Of a stretch of DNA of 64,000 nt, positions 1 to 15,000 are shown piece by piece; positions within the stretch are counted from its first letter, which is position 1; every line of letters begins with the position of its first letter. Source of the stretch: Sphingomonadaceae bacterium (GTDB taxonomy: Bacteria > Chloroflexota > UBA6077). The stretch spans positions 1 to 64,000 of the forward strand of contig JBLNDL010000033.1 in assembly GCA_050261575.1 (NCBI GenBank). The letters are read 5' to 3'. Made by a program: the position numbers.

Positions 1-3000
1 CCCCCCCCCCGGCCCATACCCCTTGCCCCCCCGGCCCCGGGGCCCCACCCGGGCGCCGCGTCCCACGTCTGTCGCCCATCGCGGCCTGGCACTCCGGCAC
101 ATTTGGGTGTGGGGCAGGGGCTTGTTCCTTGCCGTTGGACTCAGGCGGTACCCATTGCAGTCGGGCTGCAGCGCAACTGGGTGCTTGAGTGCGCCGGATG
201 GACCCCTTAGCGCAGCAGGCTGTGGCTCGCCACGGTGATACCGGCCTGGCGAGCGAACTGCAAGGCAGCCTCCGCCTCGGCCACCAACTCCTCCCGGCTG
301 GCCCCGTCGTTGGGGAACTCAGCTATCCCCGCCCTGTACCGGATGCCGGTTCCCTCGGTCACCGCGTTGCAGAGGCGCTCCGCCACGACCTGCGCCCCCT
401 CTGCCCCGGTCTCGGGTAGGATGGCGAGGAAGTTGGACTCGTTACCGCGAACCACGACGTCGATGGTACGCAACCGTTCCATCAGGATCTTGCCTGCAGT
501 GGCCAGAATCTCCGTCGTCGCGTCCGGCCCCTGGTCGCGCACGATGTCCTCCCAATCGTCGGCGCTCAACAGCAGCAGCGACAGGGGCCGCTGATAGCGC
601 CTCGCCCTCTCGATCTCGATGTTCAGCAGCCTGTCGGCGTAGCTGCTCTTCAAGGCGCCCGTAAGTACGTCGTGGCGCGAGAGTTCCGCGATCGTCTCGG
701 CATCTCGCTCCAACTGAGTCCTGATAGCCGTCATCTGTCTCGATATCACCATCCCGAGCAGCGCCGCCACCGCGAGGCACGCGGAGCCCGGCAAAAAGGC
801 GAGAAGGCTTCTCGGCTCCAGGGGAGAGTACAAGAGGACCACCGTTCGGTGGATCTGAGCGCCCACGTAGATGGCAACGCCGACCACCATCGCGGCTATC
901 CCTGACCACCTGAAAGGGTTGGCCAGGGCAGTGGCGACGACGGCCGCGGCCAAGGCCCACCCCAGTATCGCCATGTCTCGAAGGTCCTGCTGGGCGAATA
1001 CCACCGCGGTGGCTACCATCCACAGGGCCAGCAGCCCAACCACGAGCAGGGTTGACGCTACGTGCTTTCCGTTCAATGCACTCTCTCCCGTCTATCCTCG
1101 AGGAGTCTCATCGCCTGGGAAACCGGAACCAATCGGGGGAACACCCACTCGTGGCGCTCATCATCGAGCGGGTACCTCTGGACAGAGTCCACGTTTCTCG
1201 CCAGGAGAGTTGACATGAGCCAGAGATGCTAGCTTAGGGTGCCTGGCCGGGACTGCTGGACGGCTGAACCGCTCGGTAGGACAGCACGCCAAGCATGATG
1301 GCCGCCACGAGGAGGGCCGCAAGCGCAGCCACCGAGTAGATCTGGCTGCTGTTCACCAACGGTTCCTTGGTGCCCTGCTCAGCCACACCGGCCAACTCGA
1401 TGCCGGCCAGGCTGTCCTTGCCCTGGTCGTCGAGGGTCGAAAGCACCACGTTCCCGGCGGGCAGCCGCCCTGCCAAGGCCCGCACCGACCGCTCGGAGGT
1501 TTCGGCGGAGGTGCCGCTCACTACCAGTAGCGCCTTCTGATCGTTCCAGGGGGACGGTACCAGCTCAACGATCCCCAGACTCGCCGCATCCTTTATCCCG
1601 AGCAGAACCAGTTCCGTTCGTTGCAGGGAGCGTCTGGACTCTGCCTCCAGGGCGAGCGGCAGCTTCGGGCCGACTTCGGCCACCACGCCGTTGTTCTCCG
1701 GCAGGCCGTACGCCACCAGGTTGTACTCTCGCTTCGCCGCGTCGGTGAGTTGGCTGGACAGCCCTGCCCGCATCTCGGTGCTCTGTCCCAGGGATTGGCG
1801 ACCCAGGGCCACGGCGATCTGGAGGCCGTTGGCCAGCATCTCTCCCCCTTCGGGCAACACGAGGTAGCTGTTGGAGGGTGTTCCGTCCGCGACGAAAGGA
1901 TAGGGGTAGTTGATGAGATCCAGCGGTGGCTGCTCCCCGCCGATCGGGAACGAGATCGCAGTGTCCGAGTGCAGCACCGCCCACTGACGCTCCTTGGCTT
2001 CGGGGCCGAGGCTCTTGGCCGGAACTGCGTAGAGATTGAAGCCCACGGCGATGGAGTTGACGCCGGGACGCAAGGAGGCCGCGGGTAGCTGAATCCGTTG
2101 CGTCGAGCGCTCGCTGCCTTGGGGTCTCAGGAACTGGCTCCACACCAGCGTGCCGTTGACCGACACCTGCGCCGAGGAGCGGTCGGGATCGAGCAAGGGG
2201 GAGTAGGTAAGCACCAGGTCCAGGGTTGCCGTCGTGCCGCTGCTCACCGGAGGGGCATCGAGGTTGAAGGCGACGATGTGTTTGCCCGCGCCCTTGACGG
2301 TGGAGTCCGCCATGCCCAACTGCCGCAGGCTGACCTGCGCCGGCCGGTCTGCTCCCTGGGCCTCCCCTTGCCTCAACTCCTCCTGGGCGCGCGAGATGAT
2401 GGCGTATGGGCCCTGCAGGGTCTTCATCCCGAGGCGGGAACTCAGGGTTCGCACCGCTCGGTGCACTCCCTCGTCGTTGCCGCCGCTCACCACCAGGACG
2501 GTGAATCGGCTGTCCCAGGGGGAGCGGACCATCTGCAGCACCCCGTTCTCGGGCGGGATTGGCACATTCCGCTCGTCCACGAAGCCCTGTGCGGACGATC
2601 CCTGGCTCACCTTGAGGGGTAGGCCGGGCGACAGCTCATGCAGGAAGGGGTTCGTATCGGGCCGGCCGATCACCACGAGATCGCTTCCGGCTCGTAGTTG
2701 CTGGTCGACTTGATTGGCGGTGTAGAGCTTCGCCTCGAATGGCTTACCCCCCGATGCCTGCCCGAAGCGGGCCGCCACGCTGGCCGCGGCACTGAAGTCG
2801 CTGGATGACGGCTCGTTGGGCAGGATCACGGCTACTTTGCCCTCGAGCAGGGTTGGGCGCAGGAAGGGCTCGGGGAACCGAGCCAGGTCCGGCTCCGGCA
2901 GTCCCAGAAAGCGCAGGGGCGAGGCGTACTGGTAGTGGATGTGGGATGTCTCGTATACCGTGCTCCACAAGGCCGGATTCTCCTGGTTGACGTGCTCCTC

Positions 3001-12000: not shown

Positions 12001-15000
12001 TACTCCAGCGAGTGGAAAGCGGTCCGGATCCGGGGGCTGGGACCTATCCAGCTCTTGCGCGATGGTGCGAGCCTGGTTCTCGGTGAGGAATCCGGTGTGC
12101 GCCAGCGATTGGATGGCGAAAGCCCAATCGGCAGGCGGCTCGTGCGGGGCGTACACCCGATTCAAGGCCACATCGATGTCCGCTTCCCCGGTCGGTACCG
12201 GGCGGATCGTGCTGGCGGTCAGCGATCGCAGGTCTCGCAGCACTCCGCGCTCGTCGGGGTTGGCCATCGCCACCACCAACTCGTCGTCCTGGCGCTCCAG
12301 CGGAATCACGCGATGGGCCCGTGCGAAGGGCTCGGGTATCTGGCGCACCAGACGGGGCTGCAGGGGGTACCGGCTGAGTGCGACGTAGGGGCGCAACAAG
12401 GGTGTCCTGAGGTTCGGTACGGCTCCTTCCGTGATCACCGCTCCTGCTACCTTCCGTCACCGTCTCGGTCGTTTTCGATCCCACTCGTAGAGGTCGAAGG
12501 CCGCGTACGCGGCCAGAAAGACTCCCAGTATCAACAGCGGTACAGTCAGGAAACCGAGAAAGACGGTCAGGAAGATCAGCAGCCACAGGGCCATGATCAG
12601 GAAGACTCGCAACAGCACGAAGACGATCATCAGCACGTTGCGGGCGAGTAGCCTCGACTGCCTCGTCCCTCCGTCTCGCCGATCCTCAGTTCCAGGCTGC
12701 CTGGAGCGCTACCGACCACTCGGGGCAGGAACTGCGCGAGTTGCTTGATCCGCTCCTCCAGCGGAAGGACGCTGTCGTACTGGACGGTGGCGTAGAGCGT
12801 CCCCCGGTGGAAGCGCCGAACCTTCACGCGCCGGACGCCCTCCAACTCCTCCAGGGCTTGCTGGAAGGCCGCCAGGGATCGGAAGCTTTCGAATGGTGAG
12901 ACCACCAGGTTGATGGATCCCAGGGTGTCGGCTATGTCTAGGGTGCCTGGCGGTCTCGCTGGACCTGTTTGGACTCGCGGTGGCTCGGCCATTGCGTGCC
13001 CCTCCGACCCCCTCTCCCAGGGGGCGAAGGTCTCGGTGATGGCACGATCGCCAGCGCCACCCTCTTCTCGGAGGAGCGCGACCTGACCGGCGGGTGCAGC
13101 CTCGGGTTGAGAGGCAACCGGACCCTGGGGTCTGGCTCCGGAGGCCCATTCGTGTCCGTCGGCCACTTCCGCCCGCAGTTGCGGGGCCGGCATACGTTGT
13201 GATCCCGCCACGGGCTCGGACCCGCTCGAGAGCCGGACTTCTTGGCTGGCCCGAGTCGGGGGCTCCTGGCTCGCGACCCATTGGAGCGCAGCCGCGAGCC
13301 TTTCCGCGGAGATGTCCTGGGGCAGCACCGTGTCCATCCGTCCCAGCAGTGCCCGATCCGCGGCCCCGGCGCCTACCAGCCCGACGAAGCGGGTCGGCAT
13401 GCCCTCCATCCTGCTGAGATCGACGACTGTGGCCACAGTATCACCCTGGGCTGCTTCGAGATCCACCAGCACCACGTCCGGAGAGACCTCGAGAAACGAC
13501 AACCCGAGTTCCCTGCCCGTTGAGGTCGTGCCGACCACCTGGAGATTTCGGTAGTGTTCCAGGATCATCCTCAACACCAGAGAGGTGCTCTCGTCGTCGC
13601 TGGCCACGAGGATACGGAAGGCCATCAGTTGAGTGCCTCCATCTCGACCATTTCCAGCTCGACCTGTTCGCGTGTTGCCGACACGGGGCGAAGTTGGATT
13701 CCAGGTATCGCCAGCAACGATCCGATCGGCGTCGCATCACCGGTGCACTGCAATACCACGCCGAGCGATTCCCCGTCGAGATGCTCGATCCTGGTGTCGA
13801 CCACTCCGGGGAGCCGTCTGATCGTCCGAAAGAAGGCGAGCAGCGATGCCAGGTTGTGGAACGGCCGTATCACCAGTTCGATGCTGCCGGCAGGTACTCC
13901 AGCCGGTGTCCCCGTGTTCATCTGCGGGGGGGCTGGCTCCTTCGACGGCAGCGGGCCAACCACCTGCTCCGGCGCCCCAGATCGGACGTGGACGGGAGTC
14001 TGCTGCCCTGCCTGGTACGAGGAGTCCTCATCCATTATGTTCCTGTTGACTTCCTGAGAGGAAGGGGAAACCGACTGTGATTGGAGCACGGCACCCTGGA
14101 CTTGGGGCTCGCTGGCCTCCGGAGCCGGCATCGACGTAGTGGCGCCGGGGCTGCTTGCGGCCAGAACGGCCTTGTCCAACTCCTGCGCCATCGTGATGAT
14201 CGATTCCTTCGTCCTCCGTAGCACCTCGGTGGTCTTTCGGTCGGTCTGGTGAACGCGGTGCTGGATTTCCCCTCGGGCTTGATCCAGCAGGGAGAGCACC
14301 TCCATCTGGAGCTCTATCGCTCGCATCCTGGCTTTCTCAAACCCGCGGCTCTCCTCTTCCTGGGTTGCTCCCCCCCTCGCCTCGATCGTCTCCGCGGCCC
14401 GATCGACCATTCGGGCAGCCGCAGTCATGGCGAACCTGGACAGCTCCGACATGGTCGCCAAGGAGGCCTCGAGTGTGGCTAGACGCTCGTTGGCCCGCTG
14501 GAGAGCCGACTGTAGATCGGAATTGCTTCGCAGCAACTCTTGGTTCTTTCGCCGAAGCTCTTCGAAACTGGCCACCAAGTCTCGAAAGAGGCGCAGCGAT
14601 ACTTTGTCTTCGCTTCCGAGCCTCTCCAGTTCGAAGTCGGTGTCGGTGAGCCTGTCGCCGAGTTCGGACATCGGTTCTCCATTCTAGACGCCCGGCGCAA
14701 GCGGGGCGCACGGGGCGGAGGAACGGTGTTGATCGTAACGATCAGTCTAGGTGCTGGGTAGAGAGGCAGCCAGGGTGCAACCCCACTTCTTGAATTGGGA
14801 GATGCGGGAAGGCGGTCGGGGGTCTTCCCTGAGGAGCAGGGTGCTAGCACCCAAGGAGCGCGACCGGCGAGAGGCCTTCTTCTTGACACCGGCCTGCCCT
14901 GGGGCTAAGGTACGGGGCGGTGAGCGTAGCCCCCCCACAAGGCCCCACGCGGTCTTGGCACTCGGCTGTCCTCGAACGAAGGAGCACCCGGCGGCATGGC

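What a model noticed while it worked through the whole genome (the two positions that open the first line are those of the whole stretch)
207..14671. Exopolysaccharide synthase with six tandem MshEN/T2SSE_N modules in front of its GT2 domain
g01210 (C33:8461-12438, 1325 aa) is a membrane GT2 polysaccharide synthase (YdaM/cellulose-synthase-like) whose cytoplasmic N-terminus is an array of six T2SSE_N (Pfam MshEN) domains, five of them preceded by stretches like the paired 24-residue c-di-GMP-binding motifs of MshE (clearest at residues 705-760). It sits in one operon with a BcsB-like protein, three multi-pass membrane proteins of no family and a membrane-bound GGDEF cyclase, i.e. a locally c-di-GMP-gated secretion system with a multivalent receptor. 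Known MshEN-gated synthases carry a single module.
Evidence so far: pfam.tsv: six MshEN hits (17-99, 162-246, 308-393, 454-540, 634-707, 761-845; i-E 8e-7 to 2e-20), then GT2 families 945-1242; NCBIfam NF053729 'cyclic di-GMP-binding domain, MshE-related' 96.5 bits over cut 38; motif pairs read between the domains, e.g. TLGDLLVQKDLINRQQLEKGLATHRQ + RLEKALLSLGYITQEQLVDVLSEQ; TM helix at ~881; partners g01205 (GGDEF, 4 TM), g01206 (BcsB), g01207-g01209 (6-8 TM, no family, 23-27% alike). Only 14 proteins of 5.8 billion share the N-terminal array at E<=1e-20 (lengths 1242-1347; the named ones are from Chloroflexota). Literature: E. coli NfrB has one MshEN domain (PMC8669469, listing/abstract); Wang et al. 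2016 (PMC5013675, passages) note fusion of MshEN to glyco [...]
(Added by a program. Inside this text positions count along the whole contig: contig position 1 is position 1 of the stretch shown here. "Call 12" and the like, gene names such as g00115 and contig names such as C1 are that model's own, and its searches are not shown. The text may have been shortened before it was handed on; [...] marks where a part breaks off. The agent that wrote the report below was given it as the finding of a first reader that could run no searches.)

Follow-up and report, generated by a model that had tools for sequence, protein, structure and literature searches.

The report
Polysaccharide synthase with six MshEN modules
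A Chloroflexota sugar-polymer synthase really does carry six copies of a c-di-GMP sensor domain, but only the copy next to the membrane still looks able to sense, and its supposed partner cyclase is an inactive receptor-type protein.

Summary
The anatomy is real. The 1325-aa protein at 8461-12438 (-) has six tandem MshEN/GSPII modules, two TM helices and a BcsA-like processive GT2 core. The "multivalent receptor with its own cyclase" reading does not hold for this protein.

- **Motif:** only module 6, next to the membrane, passes the curated c-di-GMP-motif model (61 bits, cut-off 38). Modules 3-5 score 22-27 bits, module 2 scores nothing, and module 1 lacks the binding subdomain.
- **Conservation:** among 25 six-module relatives, module 6 alone is conserved at the motif positions. 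The window's copy has a unique Gly-to-Glu change at motif II position 3.
- **GGDEF partner:** it is degenerate (NESNF in place of GGDEF) with an intact RxxD site in all ten operons examined. That matches a YdaK-type receptor, not a cyclase.
- **Membrane proteins:** the three "no family" proteins are divergent GT-C/PMT_2-like glycosyltransferases.
- **Upstream genes:** two conserved genes share a new domain of about 85 aa.
- **Distribution:** the six-module form is a conserved Chloroflexota clade, found in 20 of the best 150 cluster representatives and in about 12 of 401 sampled genomes. Some relatives keep two or three intact motif pairs.

Verdict: a new variant of known kinds (NfrB, PilF, YdaK), of moderate interest.

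The parts
13625..14671 (-). first gene of the operon: 348-aa soluble protein with a coiled-coil-like N-terminal half and a C-terminal domain of about 85 aa shared with the next gene
   Evidence: No Pfam family over cut-off. The C-terminal domain aligns with that of the 331-aa protein. Orthologue found upstream of the synthase in 3 of 14 loci.
12630..13625 (-). 331-aa protein: weak receiver-like N-terminus, low-complexity linker, conserved C-terminal domain (about residues 237-320) of no known family
   Evidence: Response_reg scores 16.6 bits, under the cut-off of 30.2. Atlas neighbours are receiver proteins at scores 0.87-0.88, which is a lead only. A gene with the C-terminal domain lies directly upstream of the synthase in 8 of 14 loci. 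Alignment A3.
8461..12438 (-). 1325-aa synthase: six MshEN/GSPII modules, two TM helices, GT2 catalytic core, C-terminal TM helices
12142..12390 (-). module 1 (residues 17-99): C-subdomain only, with no four-helix N-subdomain
   Evidence: The open frame extends only 6 codons upstream, 1331 aa against 1325. In none of the 25 relatives is there room for a 53-residue motif window ahead of the first module.
11701..12141 (-). module 2 (residues 100-246): three-helix remnant of the N-subdomain plus the C-subdomain
   Evidence: No NF053729 hit. Motif score 8 of 22, at background. Helices 104-114, 120-132 and 149-160, with low pLDDT at 133-148.
11260..11700 (-). module 3 (residues 247-393): four-helix N-subdomain with a degenerate motif
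   Evidence: 21.9 bits against a cut-off of 38. Motif score 11 of 22. Four helices.
10819..11259 (-). module 4 (residues 394-540): four-helix N-subdomain, degenerate here but intact in some relatives
   Evidence: 24.3 bits. Motif score 11 of 22 here, but 13-19 in 8 of 25 relatives. In P0004 the best NF053729 stretch lies in this module.
10318..10818 (-). module 5 (residues 541-707): degenerate N-subdomain with its own conserved P-x-D, plus a beta-hairpin insert at residues 612-632
   Evidence: 27.1 bits. At motif II, Pro is present in 19 of 25 and Asp in 24 of 25 in place of Arg and Gly. Hairpin strands 612-619 and 625-632.
9904..10317 (-). module 6 (residues 708-845): the only module with a c-di-GMP motif pair over threshold (residues 708-760 = 10159-10317). 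Carries Glu739 where relatives have Gly
   Evidence: 61.3 bits against a cut-off of 38. Motif score 17 of 22. Conservation across relatives. Gly in 24 of 25 representatives and in 15 of 15 genome orthologues. Foldseek hit to 5htl, TM 0.85-0.86.
8464..9903 (-). linker helix, TM1-TM2, GT2 core (DAED 1034-1037, TED 1127-1129, QRSRW 1164-1168) and C-terminal TM helices
6785..8464 (-). 559-aa multi-pass membrane protein, GT-C/PMT_2-like paralogue 1
   Evidence: Lies in a dip in G+C, 0.53-0.57.
5082..6788 (-). 568-aa multi-pass membrane protein, GT-C/PMT_2-like paralogue 2
   Evidence: Atlas structural neighbours have TM 0.88 and are named mannosyltransferase or RgtA-D-like. Relatives hit PMT_2.
3465..5072 (-). 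535-aa multi-pass membrane protein, GT-C/PMT_2-like paralogue 3
   Evidence: Weak PIG-U hit, 16 bits. Homology to the other two.
1234..3504 (-). 756-aa BcsB-like protein with an N-terminal hydrophobic segment and a C-terminal TM anchor
   Evidence: Pfam BcsB scores 173.3 bits against a cut-off of 21. Hydrophobic segments at 30-48 and 728-746.
207..1076 (-). 289-aa protein with 4 TM helices and a degenerate GGDEF domain (RTID I-site kept, GGDEF replaced by NESNF): YdaK-type candidate receptor

Best explanation
Positions 207-14671 (-) hold an eight-gene operon for a synthase-dependent exopolysaccharide machine of a Chloroflexota bacterium.

The core is a BcsA-like processive GT2 synthase/translocase working with a BcsB-like membrane-anchored partner. 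Three paralogous GT-C (PMT_2-like) membrane glycosyltransferases probably decorate the product on the outer face from polyprenyl-phosphate sugars. This step is inferred.

The synthase's cytoplasmic N-terminus is an old, position-specific array of six MshEN/GSPII modules. Only module 6, joined to TM1 by a continuous helix and packed on the GT2 core in the model, keeps a c-di-GMP motif pair under selection. It is the likely allosteric switch, as in NfrB. Modules 1-5 are pseudo-receptor modules: the fold is kept but the binding residues are lost. Their most likely job is a docking or spacer platform for partner proteins, as GSPII domains do in GspE, PilB and PilF.

A second c-di-GMP input comes from the 4-TM degenerate-GGDEF protein, which would bind c-di-GMP at its RxxD site like B. 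subtilis YdaK. The messenger is made elsewhere, by the two canonical cyclases on other contigs.

Shown here: the domain anatomy, the motif state, and conservation and synteny. Inferred: ligand binding, activation, the docking role, and the polymer.
For: - **Six modules:**
- **Per-module curated motif model:** none, none, 21.9, 24.3, 27.1 and 61.3 bits against a cut-off of 38.
- **Motif-position score of 22:** 8, 11, 11, 10 and 17 for modules 2-6. The shuffled control has mean 6.9, 99th percentile 10 and maximum 12 (n=2300).
- **Module 6 in 25 six-module proteins:** it scores 13-22. It keeps Gly3 of motif I in 25 of 25. In motif II it keeps Arg1 in 23, Gly3 in 24 and Gln24 in 25 of 25.
- **Pairwise identity among relatives:** 0.47 for the N-subdomain of module 6, 0.17-0.23 for those of modules 2-5, and 0.68 for GT2.
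- **Relatives with 1-5 modules:** the membrane-proximal module scores 13 or more in 27 of 35. No scored distal module does.
- **Modules group by position on a tree:** 25 changes against a shuffled mean of 119.6.
- **AF2 of residues 1-870:** pLDDT 85.4, pTM 0.67, four-helix N-subdomains in modules 3-6, and helices 832-857 and 860-869 running towards TM1.
- **AF2 of residues 700-1325:** pLDDT 91.2, pTM 0.90.
- **Foldseek:** MshEN 5htl, PilF GSPII-A and -B, the X. citri PilB(N)-PilZ complex and XpsE-N; BcsA, hyaluronan synthases and chitin synthases.
- **GGDEF partner:** RTID-VVVRG-NESNF aligns to REVD-IVIRY-GGDEF of a cyclase. 10 of 10 operon copies lack GG[DE]EF. 9 keep RxxD cleanly and in 1 the alignment is ambiguous.
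- **YdaK precedent:** 4 TM helices, a degenerate GGDEF domain, and an RxxD site required for function (PMC5422440, passages).
- **Own genome:** MshEN occurs only in this protein; 3 GGDEF domains, of which 2 are canonical (RYGGDEF, RYGGEEF); no EAL; 1 PilZ; 6 HD_5.
- **Synteny in 14 loci:** GT-C-like gene in 12, BcsB-like in 9, GGDEF in 9, the upstream gene with the new domain in 8.
- **PMT_2:** found in 5 of 10 family members, 3 of them over the cut-off.
- **Docking, weak support only:** the array (residues 1-850) was folded with the C-terminal domain of the 331-aa protein. ipSAE was 0.50 and the best of 3 controls 0.00. The runs agree in at least 67% of contacts and the partner's pLDDT is at least 71. 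The tool calls this 'weak support'. The mark was reached by 116 of 157 solved complexes and 2 of 215 mismatches. At 0.60 or under it was reached by only 18 of those 157 and by both mismatches. My own alignments were used, so these counts hold only roughly.
Against: - No binding was measured.
- Module 6 of this very protein departs from the consensus. Motif I reads T at position 1, D at 10 and H at 24. Motif II has Glu739 at position 3, where 24 of 25 representatives and 15 of 15 genome orthologues have Gly.
- The same glycine changed to Leu is among the changes listed for the non-binding XpsE (PMC5013675, section 12). G11I at the matching position of motif I abolished binding in MshE (same paper, passages).
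- Modules 3-5 still score above shuffled background, with E-values of 1e-4 to 3e-6, so weak binding is not excluded.
- PilF GSPII-B binds without any arginine, so consensus counting can mislead (PMC11731258, abstract and Discussion).
- None of the window's own three membrane proteins reaches any Pfam cut-off. A profile of the family finds nothing among solved structures.
- I could not see model coordinates or PAE. 'Packed on the core' rests on pTM alone.
- The docking role has only the weak complex score and analogy behind it.
Confidence: 0.6

Rival explanations
1. One reading: all or most of the six modules bind c-di-GMP. The synthase would then be a multivalent, cooperative receptor fed locally by the operon's own membrane cyclase.
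For: Five modules keep a helical N-subdomain. Modules 3-5 score above shuffled background. Some relatives do keep several strong motif pairs: NF053729 stretches at E<=1e-8 number 3 in P0020 and 2 each in P0004, P0005 and P0019. 9 of 25 relatives have two or more modules scoring 13 or more.
Against: In this protein four of the five candidate sites are under the curated cut-off and one gets no hit. Their key positions are not conserved among relatives; for example, motif Gly3 is present in 0-9 of 25. The operon's GGDEF protein lacks the catalytic signature in 10 of 10 operons.
Confidence: 0.08
2. In this organism the whole MshEN array is blind to c-di-GMP because of Glu739 and the other departures in module 6. 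The messenger would act only through the YdaK-like I-site protein, and the array would be purely structural: oligomerisation, spacing or partner docking.
For: Glu739 is unique among 25 representatives and 15 genome orthologues. Changes at this glycine, or its motif I twin, accompany loss of binding in XpsE and in MshE G11I (PMC5013675, passages and section 12). NfrB G491L was used as a disabling mutation (PMC8669469, passages). Motif I of module 6 also lacks R/K/L at position 1 and Gln at position 24.
Against: Module 6 still scores 61.3 bits against a cut-off of 38. All six hydrophobic Leu/Ile positions, the motif I Gly and the motif II Arg and Gln are present. In the structures the backbone amides at this position make the contacts, so the effect of a Glu side chain is unknown.
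Confidence: 0.2
3. The degenerate modules have been re-tuned to another small ligand, such as another cyclic dinucleotide or a nucleotide sugar, rather than to proteins.
For: Module 5 has its own conserved residues at the old binding positions, Pro in 19 of 25 and Asp in 24 of 25. The four-helix fold is kept in modules 3-5.
Against: Modules 1-4 are the fastest-evolving parts of the protein, with pairwise identity 0.17-0.24, and show no shared new motif. No precedent turned up in the papers I read.
Confidence: 0.07

Closest known systems
E. coli NfrB (c-di-GMP-activated GT2 exopolysaccharide synthase with an MshEN domain)
   Same: [quoted passage not shown] Module 6 here matches the MshEN part of the NfrB model.
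   Different: NfrB has one MshEN domain, at the C-terminus, and an active partner cyclase, DgcJ. It works with an outer-membrane protein, NfrA. Here there are six modules at the N-terminus, five of them degenerate. There is also a BcsB-like partner, GT-C enzymes and a degenerate GGDEF protein. The NfrB equivalog model scores 148 bits against a cut-off of 1170.
Thermus thermophilus PilF (traffic ATPase with three consecutive GSPII/MshEN domains)
   Same: A tandem array in which some copies bind c-di-GMP (B and C) and one does not (A), although it keeps the fold. The N-terminal half also docks a partner, PilM (PMC12002112, abstract and Introduction; PMC11731258, abstract and Discussion). Foldseek matches GSPII-A and GSPII-B.
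   Different: PilF has three copies, not six. Its output is a secretion ATPase, not a glycosyltransferase. Two of its three copies are active, against one of six here by sequence.
Bacillus subtilis YdaK with the ydaJKLMN operon
   Same: A 4-TM protein with a degenerate GGDEF domain whose RxxD site is needed to switch on an operon-encoded GT2 synthase (YdaM) and its partner. The cyclase is encoded elsewhere (PMC5422440, passages).
   Different: In the passages I read, YdaM is described without any MshEN domain. The operon here has no YdaJ-like hydrolase in the calls I made, and it adds GT-C enzymes and two accessory proteins.
BcsA-BcsB cellulose synthase
   Same: BcsA is the best sequence match (E 1e-14) and the best fold match for the catalytic and membrane part. 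The BcsB family partner scores 173 bits.
   Different: There is no PilZ domain on the synthase. The CelA model scores 84 bits against a cut-off of 699. The polymer is unknown. No BcsC or BcsZ equivalents were seen in the operon.

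Membership tests
MshEN / GSPII domain (Pfam PF05157) | match to the family model over its gathering score | tested here: met
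   288.7 bits with six stretches. Each of the six is over the cut-off in the genome scan. Fold match to 5htl with TM 0.86.
c-di-GMP-binding MshEN (NF053729; paired 24-residue motifs) | 53-residue motif pair over the curated cut-off of 38 bits, tested module by module | tested here: not met
   Met only by module 6 (61.3 bits). Modules 3-5 score 21.9, 24.3 and 27.1 bits. Module 2 has no hit and module 1 has no such segment.
c-di-GMP-binding MshEN (NF053729; paired 24-residue motifs) | Gly at position 3 of both motifs in the module that passes | tested here: not met
   Motif I of module 6 has Gly. Motif II has Glu739, where 24 of 25 representatives and 15 of 15 genome orthologues have Gly.
c-di-GMP-binding MshEN (NF053729; paired 24-residue motifs) | measured binding of c-di-GMP | not testable with these tools
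   Needs ITC or DRaCALA on purified modules.
Processive membrane GT2 synthase (BcsA, hyaluronan synthase or chitin synthase kind) | DxD, TED and QxxRW motifs, and a GT-A core embedded among TM helices | tested here: met
   DAED 1034-1037, TED 1127-1129 and QRSRW 1164-1168 are invariant in 25 sequences. AF2 pLDDT 91.2. The top Foldseek hits are BcsA, hyaluronan synthases and chitin synthases.
NfrB equivalog (NF008411) | whole-protein score over 1170 bits | tested here: not met
   148 bits, from the MshEN part only.
Active diguanylate cyclase (GGDEF) | GG[D/E]EF catalytic signature | tested here: not met
   NESNF aligns to GGDEF of solved cyclases. The signature is degenerate in 10 of 10 operon-linked copies.
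YdaK/PelD-type degenerate-GGDEF c-di-GMP receptor | GGDEF fold with a lost A-site, a retained RxxD five residues upstream, and membrane anchoring | tested here: met
   GGDEF domain at 63.3 bits. RTID sits at the canonical spacing. Four hydrophobic helices. RxxD is clean in 9 of 10 copies and ambiguous in 1. Binding itself was not testable.
BcsB | Pfam BcsB over its cut-off, with a C-terminal TM anchor | tested here: met
   173.3 bits against a cut-off of 21, over residues 94-660. Hydrophobic segment at 728-746. The NCBIfam BcsB equivalogs are not reached: 89 bits against 750.
GT-C glycosyltransferases (PMT_2, ArnT-like) | match to a GT-C family model | tested here: inconclusive
   0 of the 3 window paralogues reach a cut-off. 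5 of 10 family members hit PMT_2, 3 of them over 26.1 bits. The atlas model's neighbours have TM 0.88. A profile search against solved structures found nothing.

The most novel reading that the evidence does not exclude
The five pseudo-MshEN modules are a docking rail. The two conserved upstream proteins, one receiver-like and one coiled-coil, bind the rail through a previously undescribed shared domain of about 85 aa. Phosphorelay-type input, an I-site receptor and an MshEN switch would then converge on one synthase. In relatives that keep two or three intact motif pairs, the same rail would be a true multi-site c-di-GMP integrator.
Probability: 0.2. Interest if true: 0.7.

Novelty: new variant of a known kind. 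Interest (0 to 1): 0.5.

Why it matters
It offers a natural series for asking what extra MshEN/GSPII copies are for: one to six modules, with one to three intact sites. That question is still open for PilF. It also shows one polysaccharide synthase combining two different c-di-GMP receptor types, in a genome with a very small c-di-GMP network: two canonical cyclases, one PilZ protein and no EAL domain. There, this operon may be a main output of the messenger. It links GT-C enzymes to a BcsA/BcsB-type machine in a phylum whose envelope polymers are poorly known. For annotation, it warns that counting Pfam MshEN hits, or reading 'GGDEF' as 'cyclase', overstates signalling capacity.

Tried and rejected
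- **Strict and extended published motif expressions:** no match in this protein, and matches in only 4 of 25 relatives. They are too strict to be useful.
- **Promoter and terminator scan of 1-16300:** 3 promoter-like sites against 2.5 expected, and 2 terminator-like sites against 7.6 expected. Nothing usable.
- **Profile of the GT-C-like family against solved structures:** one chance-level hit at E 0.6.
- **Word-indexed homologue search with the C-terminal domain of the 331-aa protein:** 5 proteins including its own cluster, none with a Pfam family.
- **Whole-protein word-indexed search:** 7 proteins, with a capped candidate list. It was superseded by the exhaustive search with the GT2 domain.
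- **The 480-aa minus-strand ORF at 14747-16189:** rejected as a gene. The plus strand there encodes two receiver proteins.
- **Model coordinates and PAE:** I could not obtain them, so contacts between modules were not analysed.
- **The ideas that the array is a recent duplication or an assembly artefact:** rejected. Modules group by position across relatives and the architecture recurs in many genomes.

Full report
**Observation.** All genes of the finding lie on the minus strand. The 1325-aa product of 8461-12438 gives Pfam MshEN at E 9.8e-88 with six stretches, and GT2 families over residues 945-1242. A six-frame scan of the whole genome (3.72 Mb, 103 contigs, completeness 100) places six MshEN hits, all over the cut-off, in this one frame. 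It finds no MshEN hit anywhere else in the genome. NCBIfam's 'c-di-GMP_motif' model NF053729 scores 96.5 bits against a cut-off of 38. The array is therefore real and far beyond chance.

**Anatomy of the array.** Each unit is a helical N-subdomain of about 55 residues followed by an alpha/beta C-subdomain of about 85 residues. The Pfam model covers essentially the C-subdomain. In MshE the ligand is bound mainly by the N-subdomain (PMC5013675, passages). Unit 1 has no N-subdomain, and the open frame offers only six more codons upstream.

I scanned each inter-domain segment separately against NF053729. The results were no hit for segments 1 and 2, then 21.9, 24.3 and 27.1 bits for units 3-5, and 61.3 bits for unit 6.

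I also counted the 22 specified positions of the published motif pair. Units 2-6 score 8, 11, 11, 10 and 17. Shuffled segments give a mean of 6.9, a 99th percentile of 10 and a maximum of 12 (n=2300). The strict expression matches nothing here, and matches in only 4 of 25 relatives.

AlphaFold2 on residues 1-870 used 28 aligned sequences and gave pLDDT 85.4 and pTM 0.67.
- Units 3-6 have four helices in the N-subdomain.
- Unit 2 has three helices, with a low-confidence gap.
- Unit 5 has a beta-hairpin insert.
- A long helix (832-857, then 860-869) leads into TM1.

Foldseek's best matches are MshE-N with c-di-GMP (5htl, TM 0.86), PilF GSPII-A and -B, the X. citri PilB(N)-PilZ complex and XpsE-N.

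**Relatives.** An exhaustive search with the GT2 part (residues 850-1325) finds 14,199 proteins at E<=0.001. Six modules occur in 20 of them and five in 3. Other representatives, and those stored, carry four (N-terminally cut), three, two, one or none.

I compared 25 six-module proteins: the window's, 5 and 19, counting the window's own cluster once.
- Unit 6 scores 13-22 in all of them.
- Unit 6 keeps motif I Gly3 in 25 of 25. It keeps motif II Arg1 in 23, Gly3 in 24 and Gln24 in 25 of 25.
- The same positions in units 2-5 are mostly lost.
- Unit 5 has its own conserved Pro (19 of 25) and Asp (24 of 25).

Mean pairwise identity by region:

| Region | Identity |
|---|---|
| N-subdomains of units 2-5 | 0.17-0.23 |
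| N-subdomain of unit 6 | 0.47 |
| GT2 core | 0.68 |

On a tree, modules cluster by position: 25 changes against a shuffled mean of 119.6, where 7 is the minimum possible. This was a FastTree on 99 columns, so many forks are unresolved. The array was therefore already present in the ancestor of the six-module proteins.

In relatives with 1-5 modules, the membrane-proximal module scores 13 or more in 27 of 35, and no scored distal module does.

The degeneration is lineage-specific. 9 of 25 have two or more units at 13 or above, most often unit 4. By the curated model at E<=1e-8, P0020 has three passing stretches and P0004, P0005 and P0019 have two each. P0003, P0010, P0015, P0022 and P0030 have one. 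I scanned 9 of the 25.

**A blemish in the window's own switch.** Motif II of unit 6 reads RLE, where 24 of 25 representatives and 15 of 15 distinct genome orthologues read G at the third position. These include orthologues from the same family. XpsE, which does not bind, has Leu at this glycine among other changes (PMC5013675, section 12). G11I at the twin position abolished binding in MshE (same paper, passages). So binding by this copy may be weakened.

**The catalytic part.** DAED, TED and QRSRW are present and invariant. The nearest solved sequences are BcsA, at E 1e-14. AlphaFold2 on residues 700-1325 used 36 sequences and gave pLDDT 91.2 and pTM 0.90. Its Foldseek hits are BcsA, hyaluronan synthases and chitin synthases, plus 5htl for unit 6. 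The high pTM suggests a fixed pose of unit 6 on the core, but I could not inspect contacts.

**The partners.**
- **GGDEF protein (207-1076).** It has four hydrophobic helices. Its domain aligns RTID-VVVRG-NESNF to REVD-IVIRY-GGDEF of a solved cyclase. All ten operon-linked copies examined lack GG[DE]EF. Nine keep a clean RxxD and one alignment is ambiguous. This is the YdaK pattern: 4 TM helices, a degenerate GGDEF domain and an RxxD site required for polymer production (PMC5422440, passages).
- **Rest of the c-di-GMP network.** The genome's other two GGDEF proteins, on other contigs, read RYGGDEF and RYGGEEF. There is no EAL hit, one PilZ hit and six HD_5 hits.
- **The three membrane proteins.** They are paralogues at 21-22% identity to the first. 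5 of 10 family members hit PMT_2, 3 of them over the cut-off, but none of the window's three does. The atlas's own model of the 568-aa protein has neighbours named mannosyltransferase or RgtA-D-like at TM 0.88 (a lead by that tool's own terms). A profile search of solved structures found nothing.
- **BcsB-like protein.** 173 bits, with a C-terminal anchor.
- **The two upstream proteins.** They share a C-terminal domain of about 85 aa with no family. The 331-aa one has a weak receiver-like N-terminus.

**Synteny and range.** I examined 14 loci with a long synthase gene: L001, L003, L004, L006 and L092-L101. Three short contigs, L002, L005 and L007, were left out.

| Neighbour of the synthase | Loci (of 14) |
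|---|---|
| GT-C-like gene adjacent | 12 |
| BcsB-like gene | 9 |
| Degenerate GGDEF gene | 9 |
| Gene with the new domain directly upstream | 8 |

Some contigs end early. All named records with the long form are Chloroflexota. In an even sample of 401 genomes of the phylum, including this one, 17 match the array at E<=1e-20. Of these, 12 have open frames of 1150 aa or more.

**Mechanism.** My reading is that unit 6 is the NfrB-like switch on a BcsA/BcsB-type machine. The YdaK-like protein is a second c-di-GMP input. Units 1-5 are pseudo-receptor modules used for docking or spacing.

The docking idea rests on three things. The first is analogy: PilB(N)-PilZ, and PilF binding PilM (PMC12002112, Introduction). 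The second is conserved adjacency. The third is one complex prediction, in which the array (residues 1-850) was folded with the C-terminal domain of the 331-aa protein.
- ipSAE was 0.50 in the three runs, and the best of 3 controls was 0.00.
- The runs agree in at least 67% of contacts, and the partner's pLDDT is at least 71.
- The tool's verdict is 'weak support'. The mark was reached by 116 of 157 solved complexes and 2 of 215 mismatches.
- At 0.60 or under, the mark was reached by only 18 of the 157 and by both mismatches.
- My own alignments were used, so the counts hold only roughly.

**Literature.** I searched MshEN + glycosyltransferase + c-di-GMP (15 papers). I also searched PilF + GSPII + c-di-GMP + Thermus and MshEN/tandem/Chloroflex. 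In their listings, and in the parts I read, I found no description of a synthase with more than one MshEN module. Wang et al. mention fusion to glycosyltransferases (PMC5013675, Introduction). Their supplementary architecture table and figure may list multi-copy forms. I saw only search snippets of that file.

**Verdict.** This is a new variant of known kinds, and of moderate interest.

Noticed in passing
window 14747-16189: The long minus-strand ORF (480 aa, Arg/Pro-rich) is spurious. The plus strand encodes a NarL-type response regulator (14996-15706, REC + GerE) and a single-domain receiver (15787-16176). These run divergently from the operon. A REC-GAF-histidine kinase follows at 16200-17885 (-). 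Together they are candidate transcriptional control of the operon.
   Followed up: partly
window 12633-12953 and 13628-13927 (-): A domain of about 85 aa with no Pfam family (consensus roughly L-V-S-P-F-x-S-F-R-S-L ... R-R-F-H-R-G-T-L) is shared by the two genes upstream of the synthase. It recurs upstream of the synthase in relatives.
   Followed up: partly
own genome: C92:56175-56642, C13:38608-39078, C78:115209-115541: The c-di-GMP inventory is very small: two canonical GGDEF proteins, no EAL, one PilZ protein and six HD_5 hits. One HD_5 hit lies next to the C92 cyclase. MshEN occurs only in this synthase, so no MshEN-bearing pilus or secretion ATPase was found.
   Followed up: partly
window 7001-9000: G+C drops to 0.53-0.57 against 0.62-0.68 around it. 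The dip covers the first GT-C-like gene and the 3' end of the synthase gene.
   Followed up: no
window 24540-25460 (-): One protein joins a DtxR-type iron repressor (DNA-binding and metal-binding domains) to two FeoA domains. It lies directly next to FeoB (22502-24556).
   Followed up: no
window 19176-20837 (+): A 553-aa protein with two methyltransferase domains in tandem, beside an SBF-family transporter gene.
   Followed up: no
window 29697-32372 (+), 34508-36343 (-), 36567-38768 (-): Three long ORFs (891, 611 and 733 aa) have no Pfam family at E<=1e-5. The first lies just upstream of an ABC-2 transporter pair.
   Followed up: no
P0020, P0004, P0005, P0019 (relatives): Some six-module relatives keep two or three strong c-di-GMP motif pairs, mostly in units 2 and 4. 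They would be better subjects than this protein for testing multi-site binding.
   Followed up: partly
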